From the sequence record AP019559: a stretch of 64,000 bases of DNA. One strand, given 5' to 3'. The stretch comes from Escherichia phage SP15. The notes beneath the pieces are model-generated. The model was not told where the DNA came from and did no database searches. It saw only the letters and a list, made by a program, of their open reading frames with translations. The position numbers and the translations under genes are program-made. This document shows, in pieces, positions 1,258 to 8,809 of this stretch. Within the stretch, counting starts at the first letter, position 1; every line of letters begins with the position of its first letter.

Positions 1258-1266
1258 ATAATTCAT

Positions 1267-1452
1267 TTACTCAGCTTTGAGTTTTTCAATAGCTGCATTA
1301 AGTTCTTTAAGAAACTCTTTTCGTACATTAAGACGATTGAGACTTACTAGTATATCGTGTTTAAGTTCTTCGATGTATTTCTTTTCAACTTCAATATTGT
1401 TGATAGTGCTATCACGATGAACTTCTAGCTGCGCAATTACATTCTTGGACAT
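1267..1452 (-). CDS. hypothetical protein (coiled-coil-like)
   Basis: 61-aa ORF with GAGGAAAC RBS. Confidence 0.4.
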   Translation of the reverse strand: MSKNVIAQLEVHRDSTINNIEVEKKYIEELKHDILVSLNRLNVRKEFLKELNAAIEKLKAE

Positions 1453-1554
1453 GCTTGTTTCCTCAGTTATTAATGAAAATGGTATCTGTGGCTGAATTCG
1501 ATGTCAGCAATGATAGCTGGTTGGCTACCGGTTTACTTAACTCTACACAGAATT

Positions 1555-1637
1555 TGGCGGGCCGTGTAGGATTCGAACCTACGTTGTCTTTCGACATGGA
1601 TTAACAGTCCACCGCCAAACCGCTTGGCTAACGACCC
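1555..1637 (-). tRNA. tRNA-Asn (anticodon GUU) with unusually long 13-nt variable region
   Basis: Acceptor GGGUCGU/ACGGCCC (one G-U), D-stem GCCA/UGGC, anticodon stem GUGGA/UCCAU, loop CUGUUAA, variable GUCGAAAGACAAC, T-arm GUAGG-UUCGAAU-CCUAC, CCA. Confidence 0.6.
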
Positions 1638-1789
1638 TAAATTTATATTGCTGACTAGGATTTTCACCTAGACGGAGTTAGCACCGTAGCGTGTAGCGGC
1701 ATACCTCTCCAAACCGTGCCTCATCTTTCAATTACGGAGACAGTGTTCCTACGCGTGCCTGAATTGATTCAACAATTCTTCCAGCAAAT

Positions 1790-1865
1790 TGGACGACCGC
1801 ATGAGATTTGAACTCACATAAAAAGGATTTGCAATCCTTCGCCTAAGCCCTTCAGCCAACGGTCG
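1790..1865 (-). tRNA. tRNA-Cys (anticodon GCA)
   Basis: Acceptor CGACCGU/GCGGUCG, anticodon stem AAGGA/UCCUU, loop UUGCAAA, T-arm GUGAG-UUCAAAU-CUCAU, CCA. Confidence 0.65.
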
Positions 1866-1934
1866 GTTTATCTTGTTCTGTCATGTTGCTTCTCCAGTTC
1901 AATTTATGTAATTATTATACAGAACTTTTGGAAA

Positions 1935-2207
1935 CTAAGCAACTACATTTTTTAAGAATTTGATGCCTTTCTTTTTCTTCTTATATTTCCACGTTAATGG
2001 ATTCTGTCGATTATGAACGCTTGAGATCTTTGTCTCGTCAAAGTTCTTCAATATCATGTAATCACAGGATAATTGTTCTAGTAGAATGTGATCACCGTCA
2101 AAAGCGTATACATAAGGCTGTTGACTAACACGATAATGATAGACTTTGTTAATTCTACGTTTCAGCGACTTATCAGCGCAGTAAATAAAGAAGTTTTCAG
2201 GATGCAT
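1935..2207 (-). CDS. hypothetical protein
   Basis: ORF track 1935..2222 begins at TTG; internal ATG at 2207 follows AAGGAG with 6-nt spacing. Confidence 0.45.
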   Translation of the reverse strand: MHPENFFIYCADKSLKRRINKVYHYRVSQQPYVYAFDGDHILLEQLSCDYMILKNFDETKISSVHNRQNPLTWKYKKKKKGIKFLKNVVA

Positions 2208-2224
2208 CAGCAGCTCCTTCAATT

Positions 2225-2299
2225 TGGTGCACCCTGTTCGTATCGAACGAACCTCTCAAGCTCTTCAGGCAAGCGCTAATCCATCTCAGCTAAAGGTGC
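2225..2299 (-). tRNA. tRNA-like element, possible pseudo-tRNA (anticodon arm does not fold)
   Basis: Good 7-bp acceptor GCACCUU/AGGGUGC, T-arm GUUCG-UUCGAUA-CGAAC and CCA, D-stem GCUG/UAGC, but no 5-bp anticodon stem found. Confidence 0.35.
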
Positions 2300-2305
2300 A
2301 AATTT

Positions 2306-2382
2306 TGGCAAACCTACTAGGACTCGAACCTAGACCGTACGGTTTTGGAGACCGACATGCTGTCCAGTAACACTCTAGGAAT
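2306..2382 (-). tRNA. tRNA-Trp candidate (anticodon CCA), acceptor stem with two U-U mismatches
   Basis: Anticodon stem UCGGU/ACCGU, loop CUCCAAA, T-arm CUAGG-UUCGAGU-CCUAG, CCA; acceptor AUUCCUA/UAGGUUU imperfect. Confidence 0.5.
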
Positions 2383-2390
2383 GCAGAAAT

Positions 2391-2467
2391 TGGCGTCCTG
2401 TGCGGGGATCGAACCCGCAAATCCTACCTTGAAAGGGTAGTGACTTTACCAGTTTGTCTAACAGGAC
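2391..2467 (-). tRNA. tRNA-Glu (anticodon UUC)
   Basis: Acceptor GUCCUGU/ACAGGAC, anticodon stem CUACC/GGUAG, loop CUUUCAA, T-arm GCGGG-UUCGAUC-CCCGC, CCA. Confidence 0.7.
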
Positions 2468-2474
2468 TTAAATT

Positions 2475-2565
2475 TGGTGTTGGATGATGGAGTCGAACCA
2501 CCCGAGACCCTTCCGAGTCGGCAGATTTACAGTCTGCTTCGCTACCTCTACGATACTAATCCAAC
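2475..2565 (-). tRNA. tRNA-Tyr (anticodon GUA), type II with long variable arm
   Basis: Acceptor GUUGGAU/AUCCAAC, anticodon stem GCAGA/UCUGC, loop CUGUAAA, long variable arm, T-arm GGUGG-UUCGACU-CCAUC, CCA. Confidence 0.7.
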
Positions 2566-2695
2566 ATATTTAGAAGTATTCAAAAATTCTCATTTAAACA
2601 CTTTTAAATATGTTTTCAAATTAGGTAACTATTATACCAAGTTTTAAGGCACTGAGCAAGTCAAATTTTAAAGAACTTGCTCAGTGCTATATTAG

Positions 2696-2971
2696 TTAGT
2701 CGAACTTAGGAGTGACAGTTAAGGAGAACGGAAGTTCGAAAACTTCTTCACCCTCATTACTAACGGTAACTACACGACCTTTAAGTTCAGACATTAAAAT
2801 ATCAATATCAGCTTTTGCATCTGGAGCCATACCAGCTTCAACACATTTAGCTTTAACTTCCGGCAGAAGTTCGACATCGTAGAAATAAAGCCATTCAATC
2901 TCACCTTCCCAGCCTTCCCAGGATTTACAGATTGCACTTTCAATACCAGTTGCTACAACACGATTTTGCAT
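2696..2971 (-). CDS. hypothetical protein
   Basis: 91-aa ORF, GGAG RBS. Confidence 0.5.
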   Translation of the reverse strand: MQNRVVATGIESAICKSWEGWEGEIEWLYFYDVELLPEVKAKCVEAGMAPDAKADIDILMSELKGRVVTVSNEGEEVFELPFSLTVTPKFD

Positions 2972-3061
2972 TCGTTAACTCCTTCATCAATTTATACAAC
3001 TATTATATCAGAAATTTAAAGCAAAAGGCAAGTACATTTTTAAAAATTCTGTTTGGAGGAG

Positions 3062-3268
3062 CTAAACTCCAGATTCTTCAGCTAAGTCTAGGCTAATAAG
3101 AGTTATAGCCATAATTGCTGCACCGTGTTCTTTTTCTCCGGTGTTTTTAGCAGAGTCTATAATAGTCTTAATCTGTTCGTAATAGCCTTTTACTTCTTGT
3201 TCAATACCTGCCTCGGCTATCATGCCTTTAGTCATGATTCGTTGCATAGTAATTTCACGGTTAGCCAT
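3062..3268 (-). CDS. hypothetical protein
   Basis: 68-aa ORF, GGAGA RBS, start overlaps stop of upstream small ORF (TAATG-type coupling). Confidence 0.45.
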   Translation of the reverse strand: MANREITMQRIMTKGMIAEAGIEQEVKGYYEQIKTIIDSAKNTGEKEHGAAIMAITLISLDLAEESGV

Positions 3269-3428
3269 GATGTTTCTCCAGCTTCATTTTTAATAGTTTA
3301 CAAATGAAATCAACGTCTTCATCTGTACCTAGATCTCTATCTTCAAGAGTTGCCTTGAAGTTTTTAGTCAATTCCATGAGGATAACTTCTCTAGAACGAC
3401 GTGTTGGCGGAGGTGGATGTCTATACAT
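3261..3428 (-). CDS. small hypothetical protein (55 aa, Pro-rich N-terminus)
   Basis: Not in ORF track (below 60 aa); AAGGAA RBS 5 nt before ATG; translationally coupled to 3062..3268. Confidence 0.3.
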   Translation of the reverse strand: MYRHPPPPTRRSREVILMELTKNFKATLEDRDLGTDEDVDFICKLLKMKLEKHHG

Positions 3429-3443
3429 CTTATTTCCTTAGTT

Positions 3444-3520
3444 TGGTAGGGGTGGTGGGATTCGAACCCACAAAACCTGAATTTTAAGTCCAGTACCTAT
3501 GCCAATTCGATTACACCCCC
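3444..3520 (-). tRNA. tRNA with anticodon UAA (Leu-type anticodon but short variable loop)
   Basis: Acceptor GGGGGUG/CACCCCU, anticodon stem CUGGA/UUCAG, loop CUUAAAA, T-arm GUGGG-UUCGAAU-CCCAC, CCA; D-stem weak. Confidence 0.55.
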
Positions 3521-3527
3521 GTGTAGT

Positions 3528-3716
3528 TTAGTCAATTACTTTTGAGGCTTCAAGGTAGTCGATATAGTGTATGTTTTCTACCGTAATCATATAATCTGTC
3601 ACTTTATCCATAGCTTGGGCTTCAGAGGTAGCTCTGGCTAACCTATATCCTTTTTTATATTCATCCGGGTATTCTCTATCTTGGATAAACACAACATAAA
3701 CTATATATAGATCCAT
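3528..3716 (-). CDS. hypothetical protein
   Basis: 62-aa ORF. Confidence 0.4.
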   Translation of the reverse strand: MDLYIVYVVFIQDREYPDEYKKGYRLARATSEAQAMDKVTDYMITVENIHYIDYLEASKVID

Positions 3717-3725
3717 TTGTGACCT

Positions 3726-3803
3726 CTATTTAATTTGGTGGCTCCCCGAGGATTCGAACCTACGTACCTTCCGGTTATGAGCCGGGTGCTCATACCATAT
3801 GAG
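3726..3803 (-). tRNA. tRNA with anticodon CAU (Met/Ile type), weak T-stem
   Basis: Acceptor GGUUCUC/GGGAGCC, D-arm GCUC-AUAUGGUAU-GAGC, anticodon loop CUCAUAA, T-loop UUCGAAU but T-stem only 3 clean bp, CCA. Confidence 0.5.
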
Positions 3804-3809
3804 CTTGAG

Positions 3810-3898
3810 AACCAGAATTTGGCGGAAGAAGCGGGAATCGAACCCACAAGGCTATATTTCAAACCGACAGATTAGCAATCTGCTGCAATACCGTTATG
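3810..3898 (-). tRNA. tRNA-Ser (anticodon GCU), type II
   Basis: Acceptor GGAAGAA/UUCUUCC, anticodon stem GCAGA/UCUGU, loop UUGCUAA, long variable arm, T-loop UUCGAUU, CCA. Confidence 0.7.
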
Positions 3899-3929
3899 CT
3901 ATTCTTCCGAATTTATAAGATATATTATA

Positions 3930-4448
3930 TTAGAAATTTAGCTTCATAGCAAGAAAATTTTTCAAGTTTTCGGTAGACATCTCATCCACATCTACGGGAG
4001 AAACAAAGCCGTTTAATTTTCTAGCAAATTTTTCACCCGCAGGATCATTATCTCCGACAGCTACCAATTTAAAAGGTAGTAATTTCAGTTGCTTTAATAA
4101 CGCTTTTCCTGGAGAAGAACCCAACATTGCTAGGGCTGGATAACCAGCATTATGTAACGCAACTGCCTTAAATACAGATTCAGCAATCAATACTACTTTT
4201 TCATCTCCATTGAGAGTTTCTAGTCCCCATACACACTGGGTAGTAGAATAAGTAAAGTATTTAGCTTCAAAGGGGCACTTACCATGACCTTTTGGAGCAG
4301 AAGGATTATAAGTTTGATAGCCCCTCAACATCCCAGAGAAGTCATACAACGGGACTGTTAGCCATCCTTCCGGACTTAACCAGCAATGATATTTATCTGT
4401 ATCAAATCCTCTAGATAAGAGGTGCTGTGTTAGCTCATCAACATTCAT
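3930..4448 (-). CDS. stand-alone Toprim-domain protein (DnaG-like catalytic core)
   Basis: Motifs VVLIAESVFKAVALHNAGYPALAMLG and VAVGDNDPAGEKFARKL resemble the DnaG Toprim E...DxD core; start moved to ATG at 4448 (AGAGGA RBS), track extension reads through the promoter. Confidence 0.5.
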   Translation of the reverse strand: MNVDELTQHLLSRGFDTDKYHCWLSPEGWLTVPLYDFSGMLRGYQTYNPSAPKGHGKCPFEAKYFTYSTTQCVWGLETLNGDEKVVLIAESVFKAVALHNAGYPALAMLGSSPGKALLKQLKLLPFKLVAVGDNDPAGEKFARKLNGFVSPVDVDEMSTENLKNFLAMKLNF

Positions 4449-4623
4449 ATTTGGTTCCTCTTTCAAATTTATAGATATATTATACAGAGAATTTAGCATT
4501 CAAGCAATCAAATTTTTTAACTTTTTAGAGGAAAATCATAGGGCACTTAAGGATAGCAGATAAGTGGTGAGGACCAAAATTTGTGACCCCACTAAAAATT
4601 CAGGGGCAATTTTTAAAGACCCC

Positions 4624-4653
4624 TTGACATTTTCGCTGGGGTAGTGTAAAGTA
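4624..4653 (+). promoter_or_regulatory. sigma70-type promoter for the low-complexity cassette
   Basis: TTGACA (4624-4629), 17-nt spacer, TAAAGT; about 60 nt upstream of ATG 4714. Confidence 0.5.
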
Positions 4654-4713
4654 TATGTTATGGATGAGTGATCAAAGAGACACACATTTTCTATATACTA
4701 GGAGGTGTCAAAA

Positions 4714-5697
4714 ATGACAGAAGAAGTAGCTAAGAGTCCTGAGACCGTCGCTAGCGTTGCAGCAGAACTGCACCGTCACGAGGAATCAGATAAGAAAAAG
4801 TGGGAGAAGGTCAGAGCCTACGAAGAAAAACATCGTGAACACGATGATGAAGAAGATGACGATGAACATTGTCATAAATATGGAAAACATAAAATGCAAG
4901 AACCAGTAAACGTATTTACTAGTGGCTTCCCTGGCCTACTGGGTGGTTACCCAGCAAACGCAGGTGCTTTCGGTGGTGAAGGTATGGGACTATTCGGAGC
5001 TATCCTAATCGGTGCTCTATTAACAGGCGGATTCGGTGGTTTCGGTGGATTCGGTGGACGTGGTGTAGTTGGTGATGGTACCGCAGTTGATGCAGTACTT
5101 CAGAACCAAGATACCGCTAGTATTCTAGCAGCTATTAACACTACTCGTACAGAAGCTAACCAGGGTACTGGAGCTGTTTTAAGCGCAGTTAACAATGGGT
5201 TTAGCCAGACATCCCAAAACCAGAGCCGTGATACTCAGTCTGTACTAACTACGATCTATGGTACAGGTGCTAATCTGTCTAATCAGATCTGTCAGGAAAC
5301 TCGCAACGTTATTCAGGGTCAGTTCGATCTTTCTCGCCAGATTGATCAATCTTTCGCAGCTAATCAGATAGCTCGTGCACAAGATAAGTTTGATTCTGCA
5401 CAGATCGCTTTCCAGCAGACTTTACAAACTAATAACCAGTTTGCCGCTGTTCAGGCTCAGATGTGTGCTAACCAGAACTCTCTGGAACGTCAGATCGCTG
5501 AATGTTGCTGTGAACTTCAGACTGCTATCGCTGGTGTAACTACTGCTCGTATTCAGGATGAGTTAGATGCATGTCGCCTACGTGAAGCAATCGCTGCGGG
5601 TAACGGTGCTAACGGTCAGGTAATTAATCAAATCGCTGTAAGTCTTGGTGCTATCACTCAGACTCTGGCTGGTCTGCAGGCTAAACTGCCGGCTTAA
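4714..5697 (+). CDS. low-complexity membrane protein: His/acidic N-terminus, Gly-zipper TM segment, Q/N/S/T-rich C-terminal domain with CCC motif
   Basis: AGGAGG RBS 9 nt before ATG 4714; TM GLFGAILIGALLTGGFGGFGGFGG; codon usage rich in CGT/GGT/GCT/CTG. Confidence 0.6.
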   Translation: MTEEVAKSPETVASVAAELHRHEESDKKKWEKVRAYEEKHREHDDEEDDDEHCHKYGKHKMQEPVNVFTSGFPGLLGGYPANAGAFGGEGMGLFGAILIGALLTGGFGGFGGFGGRGVVGDGTAVDAVLQNQDTASILAAINTTRTEANQGTGAVLSAVNNGFSQTSQNQSRDTQSVLTTIYGTGANLSNQICQETRNVIQGQFDLSRQIDQSFAANQIARAQDKFDSAQIAFQQTLQTNNQFAAVQAQMCANQNSLERQIAECCCELQTAIAGVTTARIQDELDACRLREAIAAGNGANGQVINQIAVSLGAITQTLAGLQAKLPA

Positions 5698-5718
5698 TAT
5701 TAAGGGGAGGAGCCCATT

Positions 5719-6135
5719 ATGAGTAAATATGGTTTTGTAAATAACGGACTTAATCAAAGTATGGGCTCCCAGCAGCCCATTCCGGGTCTGGATAACCCCT
5801 ACTTACAACAATTGCAACAGCGTTTAGCAGAAGCGCAACAGATGCAACAACAACTCCAGCAAAACCCTGGAAGTGTGAGTCCTATGCAAATGATGCAGCA
5901 AATGAGCGGGCAGTCGCAAATGCCTCAACAAATGCAGCAACAGATGCCGCAGCAGCAAGTTCAGCAGCAAACCCAACAACCGCAGGTTTCTGCGGAAGGA
6001 CAGGCAGTACTAGCCCTTTTCGAAGACTTCACAAAGACAGAGGATGGGAAGCAGCTTGTATCACTTATGGGTAAGTTTAATAGCTTCTGCCAAAGCCAAG
6101 TTGCAAAAGCTCAAAATGGTGGTAATAACTCCTAA
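5719..6135 (+). CDS. Q-rich protein
   Basis: 138-aa ORF, RBS AGGGGAGGAG, about 30 percent Gln in central region. Confidence 0.55.
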   Translation: MSKYGFVNNGLNQSMGSQQPIPGLDNPYLQQLQQRLAEAQQMQQQLQQNPGSVSPMQMMQQMSGQSQMPQQMQQQMPQQQVQQQTQQPQVSAEGQAVLALFEDFTKTEDGKQLVSLMGKFNSFCQSQVAKAQNGGNNS

Positions 6136-6144
6136 GGAGAAATT

Positions 6145-6339
6145 ATGTGTTGCAGAAAACCTGTTTCGTGCTGCCCAATGCCTGTAGCACGTTGTTGCTC
6201 TCCAGCAATGTTTACACAAATACCGGCGTTCAATCCCTTTGCCTTTAAGCCTACTCTTATCCTGCCCCCTAGAGTAGATTTTCAGTCAAGATTGGCCTCC
6301 CGTATGGGTGGTTGCTGTACACCGAGAGTGTGGTTCTGA
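6145..6339 (+). CDS. Cys-rich small protein (paired CC motifs)
   Basis: 64-aa ORF, RBS TAAGGAGA, four CC pairs; followed by hairpin terminator. Confidence 0.5.
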   Translation: MCCRKPVSCCPMPVARCCSPAMFTQIPAFNPFAFKPTLILPPRVDFQSRLASRMGGCCTPRVWF

Positions 6340-6354
6340 AGAACCAAACAATAA

Positions 6355-6386
6355 AGCCCCTAGTCGAAAGACTTAGGGGCTTTTCT
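6355..6386 (+). terminator. rho-independent terminator after the low-complexity cassette
   Basis: Hairpin AGCCCCTAG...CTAGGGGCT followed by TTTTCTG. Confidence 0.65.
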
Positions 6387-6399
6387 GTATTTAAGATAA

Positions 6400-6436
6400 A
6401 AGAAAAGCCCTGCGCTCTCCAGGGAACGCAGGGCTT
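6400..6436 (-). terminator. rho-independent terminator after SPFH gene
   Basis: Hairpin GCCCTGCG...CGCAGGGC with U-run on minus strand. Confidence 0.6.
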
Positions 6437-6459
6437 ACTTCAGATGTTACATGCGGATA

Positions 6460-7407
6460 TTATTTATTACGCATATCCATGATCATTTGACCATCGTAGC
6501 CAGTACCTACCACAGTCTGTGGTACACCACCTTGATATTTCTGAGCACGAATCATTTCGACTTCCAGTTGTTTCCAACGAATCATCTCAGGAGTAATGGT
6601 ACGTTGCAGTGCGGCGTTAGCTTCAGCTTCTTTCTTAGCTGCGTACAGTTTAGCATCTGCGTCACGTTCATTAGCGATAGCTTGGTTGTTGCGAGCTTCA
6701 CGATCTGCTTCTGCTTGTTTAACTTTTTGCTGTGCTTCCTGTTCAACACGAGCTAATTCAGCTTTAGCAGCATTAACCTGTTCTTCACGAACTTTGGTAT
6801 TCTGTACCTGTTCCATGATTACCGGTGGCAAAGTAATATCCTGAAGGAATACCTGCTTAACTGTGTAACCATATGGGCGTGCATACTCTTCAACTTCCTG
6901 TTGAATTGCAGTTTGCAATTGAGCCTGAATTTTAGCATCAAACAAATCTTGTGCTTTAGGTACAGACTTACCAAACTCACGAATAGTAGACAGTAATTTT
7001 TCAGTTACATATTTGTCTAACGCTTGATCCTGAGTACCTGCGTTAATACGGTTAATTGGTGCCTTAGAACCATCAAACTGCAACATAACAGTCAGGTCAA
7101 CAGTGGATTTAAACTTATCCTGGCTAGGAACCTGAAGTTTATCTAATTTTACAGCAATATCTTTTGTACTAAAAGTGTCGAAAGATGCAAATGGGTTTAC
7201 AAGATGGAAACCTGGTAATACTGGGTTAGGATCTACTTTACCCAGAAATGTTTGGGTTTTAACCGTACCATCAGAAACAATAGTATATGAATTAAAGGCT
7301 AGAATCAAGCCTGCTAAACCAACTACAGCACCAATACCCCAACGTTTAATAGTACGAATTACTTTCTGCTCAGAAGTCAGTTCTTTCATATTTTTAGTAT
7401 TAAACAT
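6460..7407 (-). CDS. SPFH/band-7 (prohibitin/HflC-like) membrane protein
   Basis: N-terminal TM helix IGAVVGLAGLILAF, then band-7-like domain and Ala/Glu/Gln-rich coiled-coil typical of the SPFH family. Confidence 0.6.
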   Translation of the reverse strand: MFNTKNMKELTSEQKVIRTIKRWGIGAVVGLAGLILAFNSYTIVSDGTVKTQTFLGKVDPNPVLPGFHLVNPFASFDTFSTKDIAVKLDKLQVPSQDKFKSTVDLTVMLQFDGSKAPINRINAGTQDQALDKYVTEKLLSTIREFGKSVPKAQDLFDAKIQAQLQTAIQQEVEEYARPYGYTVKQVFLQDITLPPVIMEQVQNTKVREEQVNAAKAELARVEQEAQQKVKQAEADREARNNQAIANERDADAKLYAAKKEAEANAALQRTITPEMIRWKQLEVEMIRAQKYQGGVPQTVVGTGYDGQMIMDMRNK

Positions 7408-7440
7408 ATATTTCCTTTGTTTTAGTTACAGTTAATAAAA

Positions 7441-7515
7441 TTGGCCGAGGTGACAGGATTCGAACCTGCATAAAGGAATTTAGAAGACTCCTGCCTCTCC
7501 CTTAGACTACACCCC
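7441..7515 (-). tRNA. tRNA-Arg (anticodon UCU)
   Basis: Acceptor CGGGGUG/CACCUCG, anticodon stem GGAGU/AUUCC, loop CUUCUAA, T-arm GCAGG-UUCGAAU-CCUGU, CCA. Confidence 0.7.
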
Positions 7516-8029
7516 GTTTAAATATTTTTAAGAACTCTCGTAAAAACTCTTAAAAATACAGACGATACCGGGAGAGTCATAAGTCTCACTCATTAAGTAT
7601 TTCAAGACAAAATACAGTAACGTCTATTATTTTCCAGTTTAAGTCAGGGTGACTTAGTGGTTAGGTCCTGCGGTATATTGAGGACTCGGTTAGGCTTGGG
7701 GTCATGACTTCCCGCCTTTTGCTGCTACTCAACAGGAGTTATCGCGAATTACCTGTGCTATTGTGCACCATTAGTGACATCTCTCATGTCAGCATTTCCC
7801 ACTTTGTGGATAGCTTGAAAAACTACTCCGATATGGAGAAAAAACTTCACTATCCTAGAATACCTTCTAAAGTTCTTCTTTAGCCTGGACATAGTTAAAT
7901 CGTAATAAAACTATTCAGCAGACTGGTTGGTTAGCCTGGAACCAACTACCGCGTGGTTTAGGCAGTGCGCAACTAACCTCGGAAGCTTTTACGTTAAAAG
8001 CATCAGTTATCCAGTTCTTACCGACCGTA

Positions 8030-8100
8030 GGATTCGAACCTATATCTTCCACCAGTTACGGCTTGATAATACCAATTATACTAGGACGGCAGTGTTACTA
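8030..8100 (-). ncRNA. tRNA-like small RNA (acceptor and T-arm present, D and anticodon arms not canonical)
   Basis: Terminal helix GCCGUCC/GGUCGGU (one mismatch), T-arm AUAGG-UUCGAAU-CCUAC, no encoded CCA, about 71 nt. Confidence 0.35.
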
Positions 8101-8365
8101 CATAAGTGATTTCCACACCCCACTATTTATAAATTAGAGAAGAGTTTAGGGGAGAGGTTTCAGACGCCTCATTTTACACGTTCTAGCCACTAACCGGGAT
8201 TGCCGCCCCCTGTGTACTAGTTTTACAACTAACCTACCGACTCTATTCAACGAATCTTAGTGCTCGACGCATCTTACATTAAGACAAGTTCAGCGTAATC
8301 GGCTCGCTGTTCTCTAATTTATGAATATATTATACAGAATTTATAAGCATTTAGCAAATAAATTT

Positions 8366-8809
8366 TTAATTAAATTCACCAGCAATCTGAGCAGCAGTAC
8401 CACCATCATAACGCCCAGGAAATTCTTCCTTAATCGCTTTCATCAGCATACCTTTTGTAATTCCAGGGTTTAGCTTAACTAATTCTGCAAAGTATTTACG
8501 AATCTCAGTATCAGATAACTGAGGGGGCAGATACTCCTGCAACCACTTATTTAGAATGTACTCATACTGAGCGGACTGCAAGCTATAACTATCAAGATCT
8601 TGACCATGAAGTTTAGCTTTCATCTGGTTAATGCTTTTTAGTTGAGCTTTGAGATAAGACACAAATTGTTCAGAAGTGATGAAATCTTTATTAATACGCT
8701 GAAGATCCCCGATTATGGTCTGATAGCTTTTAGCGACTTCTTTATCAGAACCATTAAACTTAGAATCCTGCAAAGCTCTACGCAAAACATCTAAAATATT
8801 CTCTTCCAT
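8366..8809 (-). CDS. GatB/YqeY-domain protein
   Basis: C-terminal ITKGMLMKAIKEEFPGRYDGGTAAQIAGEF matches the YqeY family signature. Confidence 0.6.
   Translation of the reverse strand: MEENILDVLRRALQDSKFNGSDKEVAKSYQTIIGDLQRINKDFITSEQFVSYLKAQLKSINQMKAKLHGQDLDSYSLQSAQYEYILNKWLQEYLPPQLSDTEIRKYFAELVKLNPGITKGMLMKAIKEEFPGRYDGGTAAQIAGEFN

What the first reader, a model, noticed from the sequence alone, without database searches (positions are those of the whole stretch)
4600..6440. Plus-strand three-gene low-complexity cassette embedded in the minus-strand tRNA region
Three consecutive plus-strand genes (4714-5697, 5719-6135, 6145-6339) have their own TTGACA-type promoter, strong RBSs and a hairpin terminator, and are oriented opposite to all neighbours. 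Products are unusual: an acidic/His-rich protein with a Gly-zipper transmembrane segment and a Q/N-rich coiled region containing a CCC motif; a Gln-rich protein; and a 64-aa peptide with four CC pairs. The first gene uses CGT/GGT/GCT/CTG-rich codons, which suggests high expression. I do not recognise this trio as a known module; membrane targeting plus prion-like low complexity could indicate a host-envelope or host-takeover function.
Basis: partly seen in the sequence, partly recalled or inferred. Interest (0 to 1): 0.65.

Follow-up and report, generated by a model that had tools for sequence, protein, structure and literature searches.

The report
Mobile three-gene phage accessory operon
The three plus-strand genes are a real, self-contained but dispensable operon of T5-like phages (T5 genes T5.077-079) that also travels as a unit among unrelated phages. 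Its main protein belongs to a large, unstudied phage family marked by an invariant triple-cysteine motif, and its function is still unknown.

Summary
Three tightly packed plus-strand genes (4714-5697, 5719-6135, 6145-6339) sit between a consensus-like sigma-70 promoter and a strong hairpin terminator, opposite to all their neighbours. They are orthologues of T5.077, T5.078 and T5.079. The T5 record already annotates this unit with promoter P12 and a bidirectional terminator, and calls all three genes hypothetical.

All three are under purifying selection, including the often unannotated 64-aa peptide. The operon is accessory:
- The viable T5 st0 deletion removes it.
- A published knock-down screen scored all three genes "Not Fit".
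- About half of T5-like phages lack it.

New here:
- The same triad occurs in lambdoid-type, N4-like and Pseudomonas siphovirus genomes.
- ORF1 belongs to a wide uncharacterised phage superfamily (PHROGs 8119, 16490 and 9288, including crAss-like and Clostridium phages). Members share a Gly-rich hydrophobic segment, a helical rod and an invariant CCC motif.
- Some relatives carry an ORF3-like Cys tail fused to their C-terminus.

Function remains inferred. My best guess is a membrane-anchored, cysteine-linked complex that acts on the host envelope. The prion-like and high-expression readings are not supported. AlphaFold gave no usable model.

The parts
4624..4652 (+). Sigma-70-type promoter: -35 TTGACA (4624-4629), 17-nt spacer, -10 TAAAGT (4647-4652). 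It corresponds to the annotated T5 promoter P12.
   Evidence: the only promoter-like site in 4400-6600, 10 of 12 consensus matches. T5 annotates 'promoter P12' at the equivalent place upstream of T5.077.
4714..5697 (+). ORF1 (327 aa), orthologue of T5.077 and member of PHROG 8119. Order of regions: variable acidic/His-rich N-terminus, Gly-rich hydrophobic segment, N/Q/A/T-rich helical rod with an invariant CCC.
   Evidence: (E = 4e-203). dN/dS 0.14-0.19.
4912..5073 (+). Codons 67-120 of ORF1: Gly-rich, aromatic hydrophobic segment (GMGLFGAILIGALLTGGFGGFGGFGG). Putative membrane anchor; topology unresolved.
   Evidence: 21 Gly in 54 residues, 19-residue Kyte-Doolittle maximum 1.72. The same G-rich / hydrophobic / GGFGGFGG plan is seen in distant relatives.
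5503..5511 (+). Codons for Cys264-Cys265-Cys266 of ORF1, the invariant CCC motif inside 'LERQIAECCCELQ'.
   Evidence: Invariant in alignments A1, A4, A5 and A6. It is the sharpest shared feature of the 70 profile hits.
5719..6135 (+). ORF2 (138 aa), orthologue of T5.078 and member of PHROG 7894. It has a conserved N-proximal helix (YLQQLQQRLAEAQ), a Q/P/M-rich linker of variable length, and a conserved C-terminal domain (about nt 5989-6099) with one invariant Cys.
   Evidence: (E = 1e-79). dN/dS 0.11-0.18. It follows ORF1 in every lineage that has the cassette.
6145..6339 (+). ORF3 (64 aa), orthologue of T5.079. A basic (+7), Pro/Phe-rich peptide that starts MCC and has four CC pairs. Gene callers often miss it.
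   Evidence: (220 records, at least 80% aa identity, many unannotated); 7 synonymous against 2 non-synonymous changes versus phage STG2, dN/dS 0.075. A small ORF starting MCC or MCGCC sits at the same position in L005, L006, L008 and L041.
6353..6390 (+). Intrinsic terminator of the operon: 13-bp G+C-rich stem, GAAA loop and T-run. It also folds on the minus strand, so it can act in both directions.
   Evidence: -23.2 kcal/mol, z = -5.9; minus strand -22.3, z = -5.0. T5 annotates an 'efficient bidirectional rho-independent terminator' here. Terminators also follow ORF3 directly in L006 and L041.

Best explanation
Shown. This is a self-contained, horizontally mobile accessory operon of the moron type. 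Host RNA polymerase would read it from its own sigma-70 promoter to its own terminator, against the flow of the surrounding tRNA/early region. All three genes code for protein, and the phage does not need them to grow in laboratory E. coli.

Inferred mechanism.
1. ORF1 is held at the cytoplasmic membrane by its Gly-rich hydrophobic segment.
2. Its long N/Q/A-rich helical region forms an oligomeric rod.
3. The invariant CCC cluster on that rod is a docking or cross-linking site.
4. The Cys-pair-rich peptide ORF3 binds that site, through disulfides or a shared metal ion. In related phage proteins an ORF3-like segment is the covalently attached C-terminal tail.
5. ORF2 is a soluble partner: an adaptor or assembly factor acting through its conserved C-terminal domain.
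6. The resulting envelope-associated complex gives a conditional advantage. The most likely roles are exclusion of or competition with other phages, or modulation of envelope integrity or lysis. It is not a core step of replication.
For: Operon anatomy. The T5 reference already annotates promoter P12 and the terminator.

Coding: PHROG E-values; dN/dS 0.07-0.19.

Accessory and dispensable:
- The viable T5 st0 deletion removes T5.072-T5.080.
- T5.077, T5.078 and T5.079 were scored 'Not Fit' in CRISPRi-ART (PMC11879866 supplement).
- The operon is absent from Epseptimavirus smaug at the same locus but present in STG2.
- About 430 T5-like records have the neighbouring SPFH gene, against about 221 with the cassette.

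Mobile as a unit:
- The same triad occurs in lambdoid-type contigs, between the Q antiterminator gene and the lysis genes.
- It occurs in N4-like contigs, a distant Demerecviridae-sized contig and Pseudomonas phage RSP/KPP23.
- In the lambdoid-type, N4-like and distant Demerecviridae-sized contigs it again lies on the strand opposite to the genes on both sides. In Pseudomonas phage RSP it sits at a point where transcription diverges.
- Its G+C content is 46-49% against 39% for the window.

Membrane anchor: hydropathy, and conservation of the G-rich hydrophobic plan in distant relatives.

Rod: predicted all-helical, though at low confidence.

CCC site: invariant across the superfamily.

ORF1-ORF3 link:
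- The two genes co-occur almost perfectly (221 against 220 records).
- Relatives have C-terminal tails such as 'PVPAFAVPNPF...GGCCNS', 'CCTPAQIRVP' and 'PIPAY...GCGCG'. These resemble ORF3's 'IPAFNPFAF' and 'GGCCTPRVWF'.
Against: - Nothing here tests function.
- Topology is ambiguous. The 66-residue N-terminus has 12 Lys/Arg, which argues for N-in/C-out and a periplasmic rod. ORF2 and ORF3 have no export signal, so they would be cytoplasmic and could not reach a periplasmic rod.
- The hydrophobic core is short in the lambdoid-type homologue P0026.
- The ORF3-tail resemblance rests on short motifs with no statistical test.
- AlphaFold2 gave no confident model for ORF1 or for a compact relative (pLDDT 46.8 and 47.3).
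- No PADLOC, Pfam or NCBIfam family supports any envelope or exclusion role.
- Some superfamily members lack the hydrophobic segment altogether, for example P0104 in a T7-like contig.
Confidence: 0.4

Rival explanations
1. Lysis-associated module. ORF1 would act as a lysis regulator or spanin-like envelope-spanning rod (anchor plus coiled coil with cysteines), and the Pro-rich, Cys-rich ORF3 would be its small partner. Together they would tune or assist envelope disruption.
For: - The design resembles Rz/Rz1 (my own knowledge of spanins): a membrane anchor plus a helical domain with conserved Cys, and a small Pro-rich Cys-containing partner (10 Pro and 8 Cys in 64 aa).
- Relatives sit next to lysis genes. 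In lambdoid-type contigs the cassette abuts holin, lysozyme and Rz genes. In crAss-like phages the homologue follows holin and LysB-like genes. In contig L013 it lies just upstream of an M15 endolysin.
Against: - ORF3 has no signal peptide or lipobox.
- ORF2 separates ORF1 from ORF3.
- There are no Pfam or PHROG lysis hits. The only one is a holin match for relative P0032 at E = 0.0097.
- The lambdoid-type contigs already carry an Rz gene (PF03245).
- In T5-like, N4-like and T7-like genomes the gene lies in early or replication regions on the opposite strand.
- Knock-down in T5 has no fitness effect, and the st0 deletion lyses normally enough to be a standard laboratory strain.
Confidence: 0.15
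2. Counter-defence or inter-phage competition effector without any structural cysteine cross-linking. The operon would neutralise a host immune system, or block rival phages, by an unrelated mechanism.
For: - It lies in the deletable accessory region next to T5.076. The CRISPRi-ART re-annotation lists T5.076 as anti-defence, subverting retron defence.
- It shows presence/absence polymorphism and horizontal spread among virulent and lambdoid-type phages.
- It is dispensable on laboratory K-12. This is typical of genes needed only on particular hosts.
Against: - No similarity to any known defence component in PADLOC. PADLOC does not cover anti-defence proteins.
- The superfamily spans phages of Gram-negative hosts, Clostridium and Bacteroidales-associated crAss-like phages. 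This argues for a very general target rather than one specific immune system.
Confidence: 0.2
3. Cytoplasmic metal-binding or metal-handling set. The His/acid-rich N-terminus, the CCC motif and the CC-pair peptide would bind Zn, Cu or another metal, in the manner of a metallothionein or metallochaperone.
For: - ORF1's N-terminus is His/Asp/Glu-rich and expands to runs such as HHYHHHHHEH in some T5-like phages.
- Cysteines are invariant in all three proteins.
- ORF2 and ORF3 lack export signals, so their cysteines would be reduced in the cytoplasm.
- Non-T5 cassettes add a small Zn-ribbon protein.
Against: - The His-rich stretch is not conserved outside close T5 relatives.
- There are no classical CxxC or CxC metal motifs and no Pfam metal-binding hit.
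- ORF3 is only 12.5% Cys.
- It is unclear what a virulent phage would gain.
Confidence: 0.1
4. Virion-associated fibre or decoration protein, as the 'spike protein/glycoprotein' and 'outer capsid protein/viral fiber' labels on crAss-like homologues suggest.
For: - crAss-like homologues carry those labels and lie beside virion structural genes.
- The protein is a long helical rod.
- In Clostridium-phage modules the next gene encodes a beta-rich protein with an N-terminal Cys cluster.
Against: - The labels are remote-similarity annotations, not experiments.
- There is a strongly hydrophobic segment.
- The operon is read against the early region from a host-type promoter.
- T5 remains infectious without it.
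- To my knowledge published T5 virion inventories do not list T5.077-079 (not checked here).
Confidence: 0.05

Closest known systems
T5 genes T5.077, T5.078, T5.079 with promoter P12 and the bidirectional terminator (NC_005859)
   Same: Direct orthologues. ORF1 is about 80-87% identical by the two searches run, ORF2 95% and ORF3 92%. Order, spacing, promoter and terminator positions are the same.
   Different: Nothing substantive differs. T5 has the alternative ORF3 C-terminus NKSIWF where this window has TPRVWF. All three genes are annotated only as hypothetical.
Phage morons (autonomous accessory transcription units, as described for lambdoid phages)
   Same: Own promoter and terminator, a presence/absence difference between close relatives, occurrence in unrelated phages, and G+C content above the host phage. 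In lambdoid-type contigs it occupies the classical slot between Q and the lysis genes.
   Different: Most carriers here are virulent phages, so lysogenic conversion is not the rationale. It has three co-inherited genes rather than one.
Two-component spanins (Rz/Rz1)
   Same: Works-like resemblance only: an anchored helical rod with conserved cysteines, plus a small Pro-rich Cys-containing partner.
   Different: No lipoprotein signal on ORF3, an 80-residue N-terminal extension before the anchor, an intervening ORF2, no sequence similarity, and dispensable in T5.
PHROG 16490 and PHROG 9288 (uncharacterised phage proteins, including crAss-like 'spike protein/glycoprotein', Clostridium phage CPD1_039 and a Butyrivibrio phage Ceridwen protein)
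   Same: Same plan of Gly-rich hydrophobic segment, N/Q-rich helices and invariant CCC. The three PHROGs are linked by HMM matches, by the profile search and by hhalign at the motif.
   Different: These relatives are shorter. They usually carry the Cys/Gly tail on the same polypeptide, have different neighbouring genes, and mostly lie co-oriented with their neighbours.

Membership tests
Phage moron / autonomous accessory operon | Own promoter and own terminator flanking the gene(s) | tested here: met
   Promoter 4624-4652. Terminator about 6353-6390. Both are annotated in T5.
Phage moron / autonomous accessory operon | Present in some and absent from other closely related genomes at the same locus, and shared with unrelated phages | tested here: met
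   STG2 against smaug. About 221 against about 430 T5-like records. Lambdoid-type, N4-like and Pseudomonas phages.
Phage moron / autonomous accessory operon | Dispensable for lytic growth | tested here: met
   The T5 st0 deletion removes it. CRISPRi-ART scored the genes 'Not Fit' (PMC11879866).
Phage moron / autonomous accessory operon | Actually transcribed independently of the phage programme | not testable with these tools
   No transcriptome data were found. Only the promoter consensus and the T5 promoter annotation are available.
PHROG 8119 / PHROG 7894 | Full-length HMM match | tested here: met
   E = 4.1e-203 over 1-327 and E = 1.2e-79 over 1-138. ORF3 is a PHROG singleton.
CCC-motif helical superfamily (defined here: PHROGs 8119 + 16490 + 9288) | Invariant CCC inside a helix of the form 'L..Q(I/L)(A/S)(E/D/N)CCC', in most members followed by a 'R(L/V/I)(R/Q)D(E/A)L' helix | tested here: met
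   ORF1 'LERQIAECCCELQ...ARIQDELDACRL'. 70 profile hits. Alignments A5 and A6. hhalign probability 98% at the motif.
CCC-motif helical superfamily (defined here) | Gly-rich, aromatic hydrophobic segment N-terminal to the rod | tested here: met
   Residues 67-120. Shared with P0027-P0032, P0057, P0089, P0091, P0099 and the P0120 group. Absent from the PHROG 9288 type.
Two-component spanin (Rz/Rz1) | Outer-membrane lipoprotein partner with signal peptide and lipobox Cys | tested here: not met
   ORF3 starts MCCRKP and has no hydrophobic signal (Kyte-Doolittle maximum 0.85).
Two-component spanin (Rz/Rz1) | Sequence family match (Pfam Phage_lysis/Rz or a PHROG lysis category) | tested here: not met
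   No such hits. The lambdoid-type contigs have a separate PF03245 gene.
Holin | Small membrane protein with a holin family match, next to an endolysin | tested here: not met
   ORF1 is 327 aa with one hydrophobic segment and no holin hits. There is no endolysin adjacent in the window.
Anti-phage defence system component (PADLOC) | Match to a known defence protein model | tested here: not met
   No hits for any of the three proteins or for the SPFH neighbour.
Endospore appendage (Ena, DUF3992)-like disulfide-linked fibre subunits (a lead recalled from memory) | DUF3992 jellyroll domain with an N-terminal Cys connector | tested here: not met
   Neither ORF3 nor the Cys-headed neighbours in Clostridium-phage modules give a Pfam or PDB-sequence match. 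Only the N-terminal Cys cluster resembles the family.
Prion-like / Q/N-rich low-complexity domain | Compositionally biased, poorly conserved, disordered Q/N tract | tested here: inconclusive
   The ORF1 rod is Q/N-rich but position-specifically conserved and predicted helical. The ORF2 linker is variable in length and Q-rich. No prion predictor was available.

The most novel reading that the evidence does not exclude
The cassette is the Gram-negative, split-gene form of a previously unrecognised pan-phage system. This system would be a membrane-anchored helical rod whose invariant triple cysteine is covalently or metal-linked to Cys-cluster partners (ORF3 here; fused tails or Cys-headed neighbours in Firmicutes and crAss-like phages). 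It would build a cross-linked assembly at the infected cell's envelope, with a role in phage-phage or phage-host conflict not yet described.
Probability: 0.25. Interest if true: 0.75.

Novelty: new variant of a known kind. Interest (0 to 1): 0.5.

Why it matters
T5 is a classical model phage, and these three genes sit in its long-known deletable region with no assigned role. The triad moves as a unit between unrelated phage lineages. Its main protein belongs to a family that reaches crAss-like gut phages and Clostridium phages. Together these facts turn three "hypothetical proteins" into a defined target for experiments.

If the cysteine-linked envelope complex is real, it would be a new and widespread accessory function of phages. 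Knowing that function would matter when choosing or engineering T5-like phages for therapy or biocontrol. If the operon proves merely dispensable, the result still corrects several misleading annotations: "spike protein/glycoprotein", "alpha/beta hydrolase like protein", and the frequently missing ORF3.

Tried and rejected
- Structure. AlphaFold2 on ORF1 with 16 homologues gave pLDDT 46.8. On the compact relative P0120 with 39 homologues it gave pLDDT 47.3. Both are unusable, so I ran no fold search.
- PDB by sequence. Profiles A1 and A5 and a neighbouring protein gave nothing below E = 0.4.
- Family libraries. Pfam, NCBIfam and PADLOC gave only sub-threshold low-complexity hits such as RIFIN and Apolipoprotein.
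- ORF2 against the Q/M-rich proteins next to Firmicutes-phage homologues: no homology (hhalign probability 2.4%). The resemblance is compositional only.
- Ena/DUF3992 and BhlA-like ideas for neighbouring genes in Clostridium-phage modules: no Pfam support.
- Prophage or host origin. There is no relative in one genome per GTDB species or in 5,426 complete E. coli genomes. The IMG/VR pattern scan returned only T5-like phages.
- TM-less relative P0104: no match among cultured phages.
- Literature. No paper mentions T5.077-079 or the PHROG numbers in its main text. Accession searches gave only false prefix matches. The AKFV33 proteome paper does not mention the T5 gene names or the locus tags I guessed for its orthologues. 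No T5 time-course transcriptome was found.
- High expression from codon usage: rejected after comparison with 31 long ORFs of the window.
Full report
**1. What is in the window**

The window is a T5-like phage (Tequintavirus). Positions 4500-6500 are 97-99% identical to phages NBEco001, phiLLS and FFH_1.

- ORF1, 4714-5697, 327 aa
- ORF2, 5719-6135, 138 aa
- ORF3, 6145-6339, 64 aa

Each follows a strong Shine-Dalgarno sequence. The gaps between the genes are 21 and 9 nt.

The only sigma-70-like site in 4400-6600 is TTGACA-17-TAAAGT at 4624-4652. Downstream, a 13-bp G+C-rich hairpin with a T-run folds at -23.2 kcal/mol, z = -5.9, and it also folds on the other strand. A second hairpin at 6405-6436 on the minus strand terminates the convergent SPFH gene. 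All 11 tRNA genes and all flanking genes are on the minus strand.

**2. It is already annotated, but only as "hypothetical"**

The T5 reference (NC_005859) carries the same unit as T5.077, T5.078 and T5.079. It sits between "promoter P12" and an [quoted passage not shown]. Many other records omit ORF3.

ORF1 and ORF2 are full-length members of PHROG 8119 and PHROG 7894, both of unknown function. Nothing reaches threshold in Pfam, NCBIfam, PADLOC or PDB sequences.

**3. The genes are real**

Against T5, VEc33 and the Epseptimavirus STG2:
- ORF1 has dN/dS 0.14-0.19.
- ORF2 has dN/dS 0.11-0.18.
- ORF3 differs from STG2 by 7 synonymous and 2 non-synonymous changes, dN/dS 0.075.

ORF3 is at least 80-90% identical at the protein level in about 220 records. 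It is therefore more conserved than ORF1.

The high ratios for ORF3 against T5-type alleles come from one clustered swap at the C-terminus (TPRVWF against NKSIWF). Synonymous divergence falls along the operon: 0.73, 0.64 and 0.18 against STG2. I cannot explain this. It could reflect a recombination mosaic or an extra constraint on the ORF3 DNA.

**4. The operon is accessory**

- The viable T5 st0 deletion mutant joins a truncated gene next to tRNA-Asp to a truncated T5.081. This removes T5.072-T5.080, the cassette included.
- In the transcriptome-wide CRISPRi-ART screen, T5.077, T5.078 and T5.079 are all "Not Fit" with "unknown function" (PMC11879866 supplementary files 8 and 16).
- Epseptimavirus smaug lacks the cassette at the same locus, where the SPFH gene is followed directly by the NadR-like and PnuC-like genes. 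Its relative STG2 has the cassette there.
- About 430 T5-like records carry the SPFH neighbour at 90% identity or more. Only about 221 carry ORF1 and about 220 carry ORF3.

**5. The operon is mobile as a unit**

Homologues at 36-46% identity lie in quite different genomes:
- Lambdoid-type contigs, between the Q antiterminator and the holin/lysozyme/Rz genes, on the opposite strand.
- N4-like contigs that encode a virion RNA polymerase, again on the opposite strand.
- A distant Demerecviridae-sized contig.
- The 63-kb Pseudomonas phages RSP and KPP23.

In each case ORF1 is followed by an ORF2 homologue. Its conserved C-terminal domain reads 'LF(E/D)E(F/Y)..T(E/D)(D/E)GKQL...(I/M).KF..(F/Y)CQ'. 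Next comes a 49-69-aa ORF that starts MCC or MCGCC and has further CC pairs.

A terminator follows ORF3 directly in the lambdoid-type and Pseudomonas versions. The non-T5 versions add a small Zn-ribbon gene transcribed divergently upstream. That gene is absent from the window.

The cassette's G+C content (46-49%) exceeds that of the window (39%). No copy was found in one genome per GTDB species or in complete E. coli genomes.

**6. ORF1 belongs to a large uncharacterised superfamily**

A profile of the helical C-domain, searched against 1.84 billion representative proteins, found 70 proteins at E = 1e-3 or better.

Beyond close relatives, these share a sharp motif. It reads 'L(A/S)(R/K)Q(L/I/M)(A/S)(E/D)CCCE(L/I/V)K' and is followed 20-25 residues later by 'R(L/V/I)RD(A/E)L'. 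This matches ORF1's 'LERQIAECCCELQ...ARIQDELDACRL'. None has a name or a Pfam domain.

HMM matches connect PHROGs 8119, 16490 and 9288. hhalign gives 98% probability, although only over the 17 columns around CCC.

Members occur in:
- temperate gut Firmicutes phages;
- Clostridium perfringens and Butyrivibrio phages;
- many crAss-like Suoliviridae, where they are labelled "spike protein/glycoprotein" or "outer capsid protein/viral fiber";
- a T7-like contig, again on the opposite strand and lacking the hydrophobic segment.

Most share the plan [quoted passage not shown].

**7. A link between ORF1 and ORF3**

Many relatives end in a 'P.PA(F/Y)..P' motif followed by a Cys/Gly tail such as CGCGCA, CCCGTNNGCGCNG, GGCCNSNGFNF or CCTPAQIRVP.

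ORF1 stops at '...LQAKLPA', just where those tails begin. ORF3 contains 'IPAFNPFAF' and 'GGCCTPRVWF'. Together with the near-perfect co-occurrence of the two genes, this suggests that ORF3 is the detached equivalent of that tail and works with the CCC rod.

The motifs are short and I have no statistic for them, so I treat this as a lead only.

**8. Mechanism**

Shown: the operon is autonomous, accessory and mobile, and it encodes three conserved proteins.

Inferred: ORF1 is membrane-anchored. Its 19-residue Kyte-Doolittle maximum is 1.72. It forms an oligomeric helical rod. AlphaFold2 predicts an all-helical protein with one 150-residue helix, but at pLDDT 46.8.

Also inferred: the CCC cluster is where the Cys-pair peptide ORF3 docks, by disulfide or metal, and ORF2 is a soluble partner. 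The complex would act on the envelope for a conditional benefit.

Topology is the main weakness. The charged N-terminus argues for a periplasmic rod, whereas ORF2 and ORF3 have no export signal.

Rival readings are a lysis-associated role, a counter-defence role, metal binding and a virion fibre. Each is weighed in its own section of this report.

**9.

- The CGT/GGT/GCT preference matches the background of 31 long ORFs in the window (CGT 0.48, GGT 0.55, GCT 0.49). The neighbouring SPFH gene shows the same preference, so it says nothing specific about expression.
- "Prion-like" does not fit ORF1, whose Q/N-rich region is position-specifically conserved. It could describe only the variable linker of ORF2.
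- An essential host-takeover role is excluded by dispensability.

**10. Verdict**

The feature is real and already annotated, and its function is unknown. It is best described as a moron-type accessory operon built from uncharacterised protein families. That is a new variant of a known kind rather than a demonstrably new system. Interest is moderate, at 0.5. The breadth of the CCC-motif family and the conserved triad make it a good target for experiments, but nothing here shows what it does.

Noticed in passing
window 3930-4499 (-): The upstream neighbour is a Toprim/primase-like protein, the T5.076 orthologue (PHROG 849). The CRISPRi-ART re-annotation of T5 lists it as 'anti-defense, subverts retron-mediated defense' and scores it Semi-Fit. 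The cassette therefore sits beside a reported counter-defence gene.
   Followed up: partly
window 6460-7407 (-): The convergent neighbour is an SPFH/band-7 protein, the T5.080 orthologue, often annotated 'lipoprotein'. About 710 phage records carry it, including T4-like Klebsiella, Citrobacter and Aeromonas phages at 60-80% identity. It is far more widespread than the cassette and is not linked to it in other lineages.
   Followed up: partly
window 6405-6436, GCGC at 6412-6415: The SPFH terminator hairpin contains GA-GCGC-A on the minus strand. By offset this matches the 'major DNA single-chain interruption' (nick consensus Pu-GCGC) annotated in T5 between the terminator and T5.080.
   Followed up: no
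L006 3716-3919 (-), L008 3756-3911 (-), L041 2263-2409 (-): In the lambdoid-type, N4-like and Pseudomonas versions of the cassette, a conserved 48-67-aa Zn-ribbon protein with a basic tail (CP.CG...C..CG..F...R.D...C.P.CR.RK.R) is encoded divergently just upstream of ORF1. It is absent from the window and from T5-like phages. It may be a regulator of the cassette.
   Followed up: partly
window 6145-6339 compared with L029/L035: Synonymous divergence drops along the operon (ORF1 0.73, ORF2 0.64, ORF3 0.18 against STG2). ORF3 has two C-terminal alleles, TPRVWF and NKSIWF, that differ by clustered changes. This suggests a recombination mosaic or an extra constraint on the ORF3 DNA.
   Followed up: partly
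L013 7580-7957, L016 5496-5873, L038 4014-4391: In gut and Clostridium phage modules, the gene after the CCC-motif protein encodes a beta-rich protein of about 125 aa that starts with a Cys cluster (MTCNCCNN..., MTCNRRCNCCNRR...). This echoes ORF3's MCC...CC start. There is no Pfam, PHROG or PDB-sequence match.
   Followed up: partly
L015 4680-5657, L039 3171-4091 (crAss-like); L042 4729-4911 (phage RSP): Probable over-annotations. The crAss-like CCC-motif homologues are labelled 'outer capsid protein/viral fiber' or 'spike protein/glycoprotein'. The ORF3 homologue of Pseudomonas phage RSP is labelled 'alpha/beta hydrolase like protein'.
   Followed up: no
window about 1260-8700: By comparison with T5 st0, the classical viable st0 deletion corresponds to the stretch from just after tRNA-Asp (1181-1257) to within the YqeY-like gene (8366-8809). 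Everything in between is dispensable in T5, including several tRNAs, the T5.076 orthologue, the cassette and the SPFH gene.
   Followed up: partly
P0049, P0050, P0056, P0092 (remote profile hits): Some remote CCC-motif proteins have long apolipoprotein-like helical repeats, RS-rich tails (RSRSRSRSPRRRRDRD) or an unrelated N-terminal domain. This hints that the motif may also occur outside tailed phages. Their sources could not be looked up.
   Followed up: no
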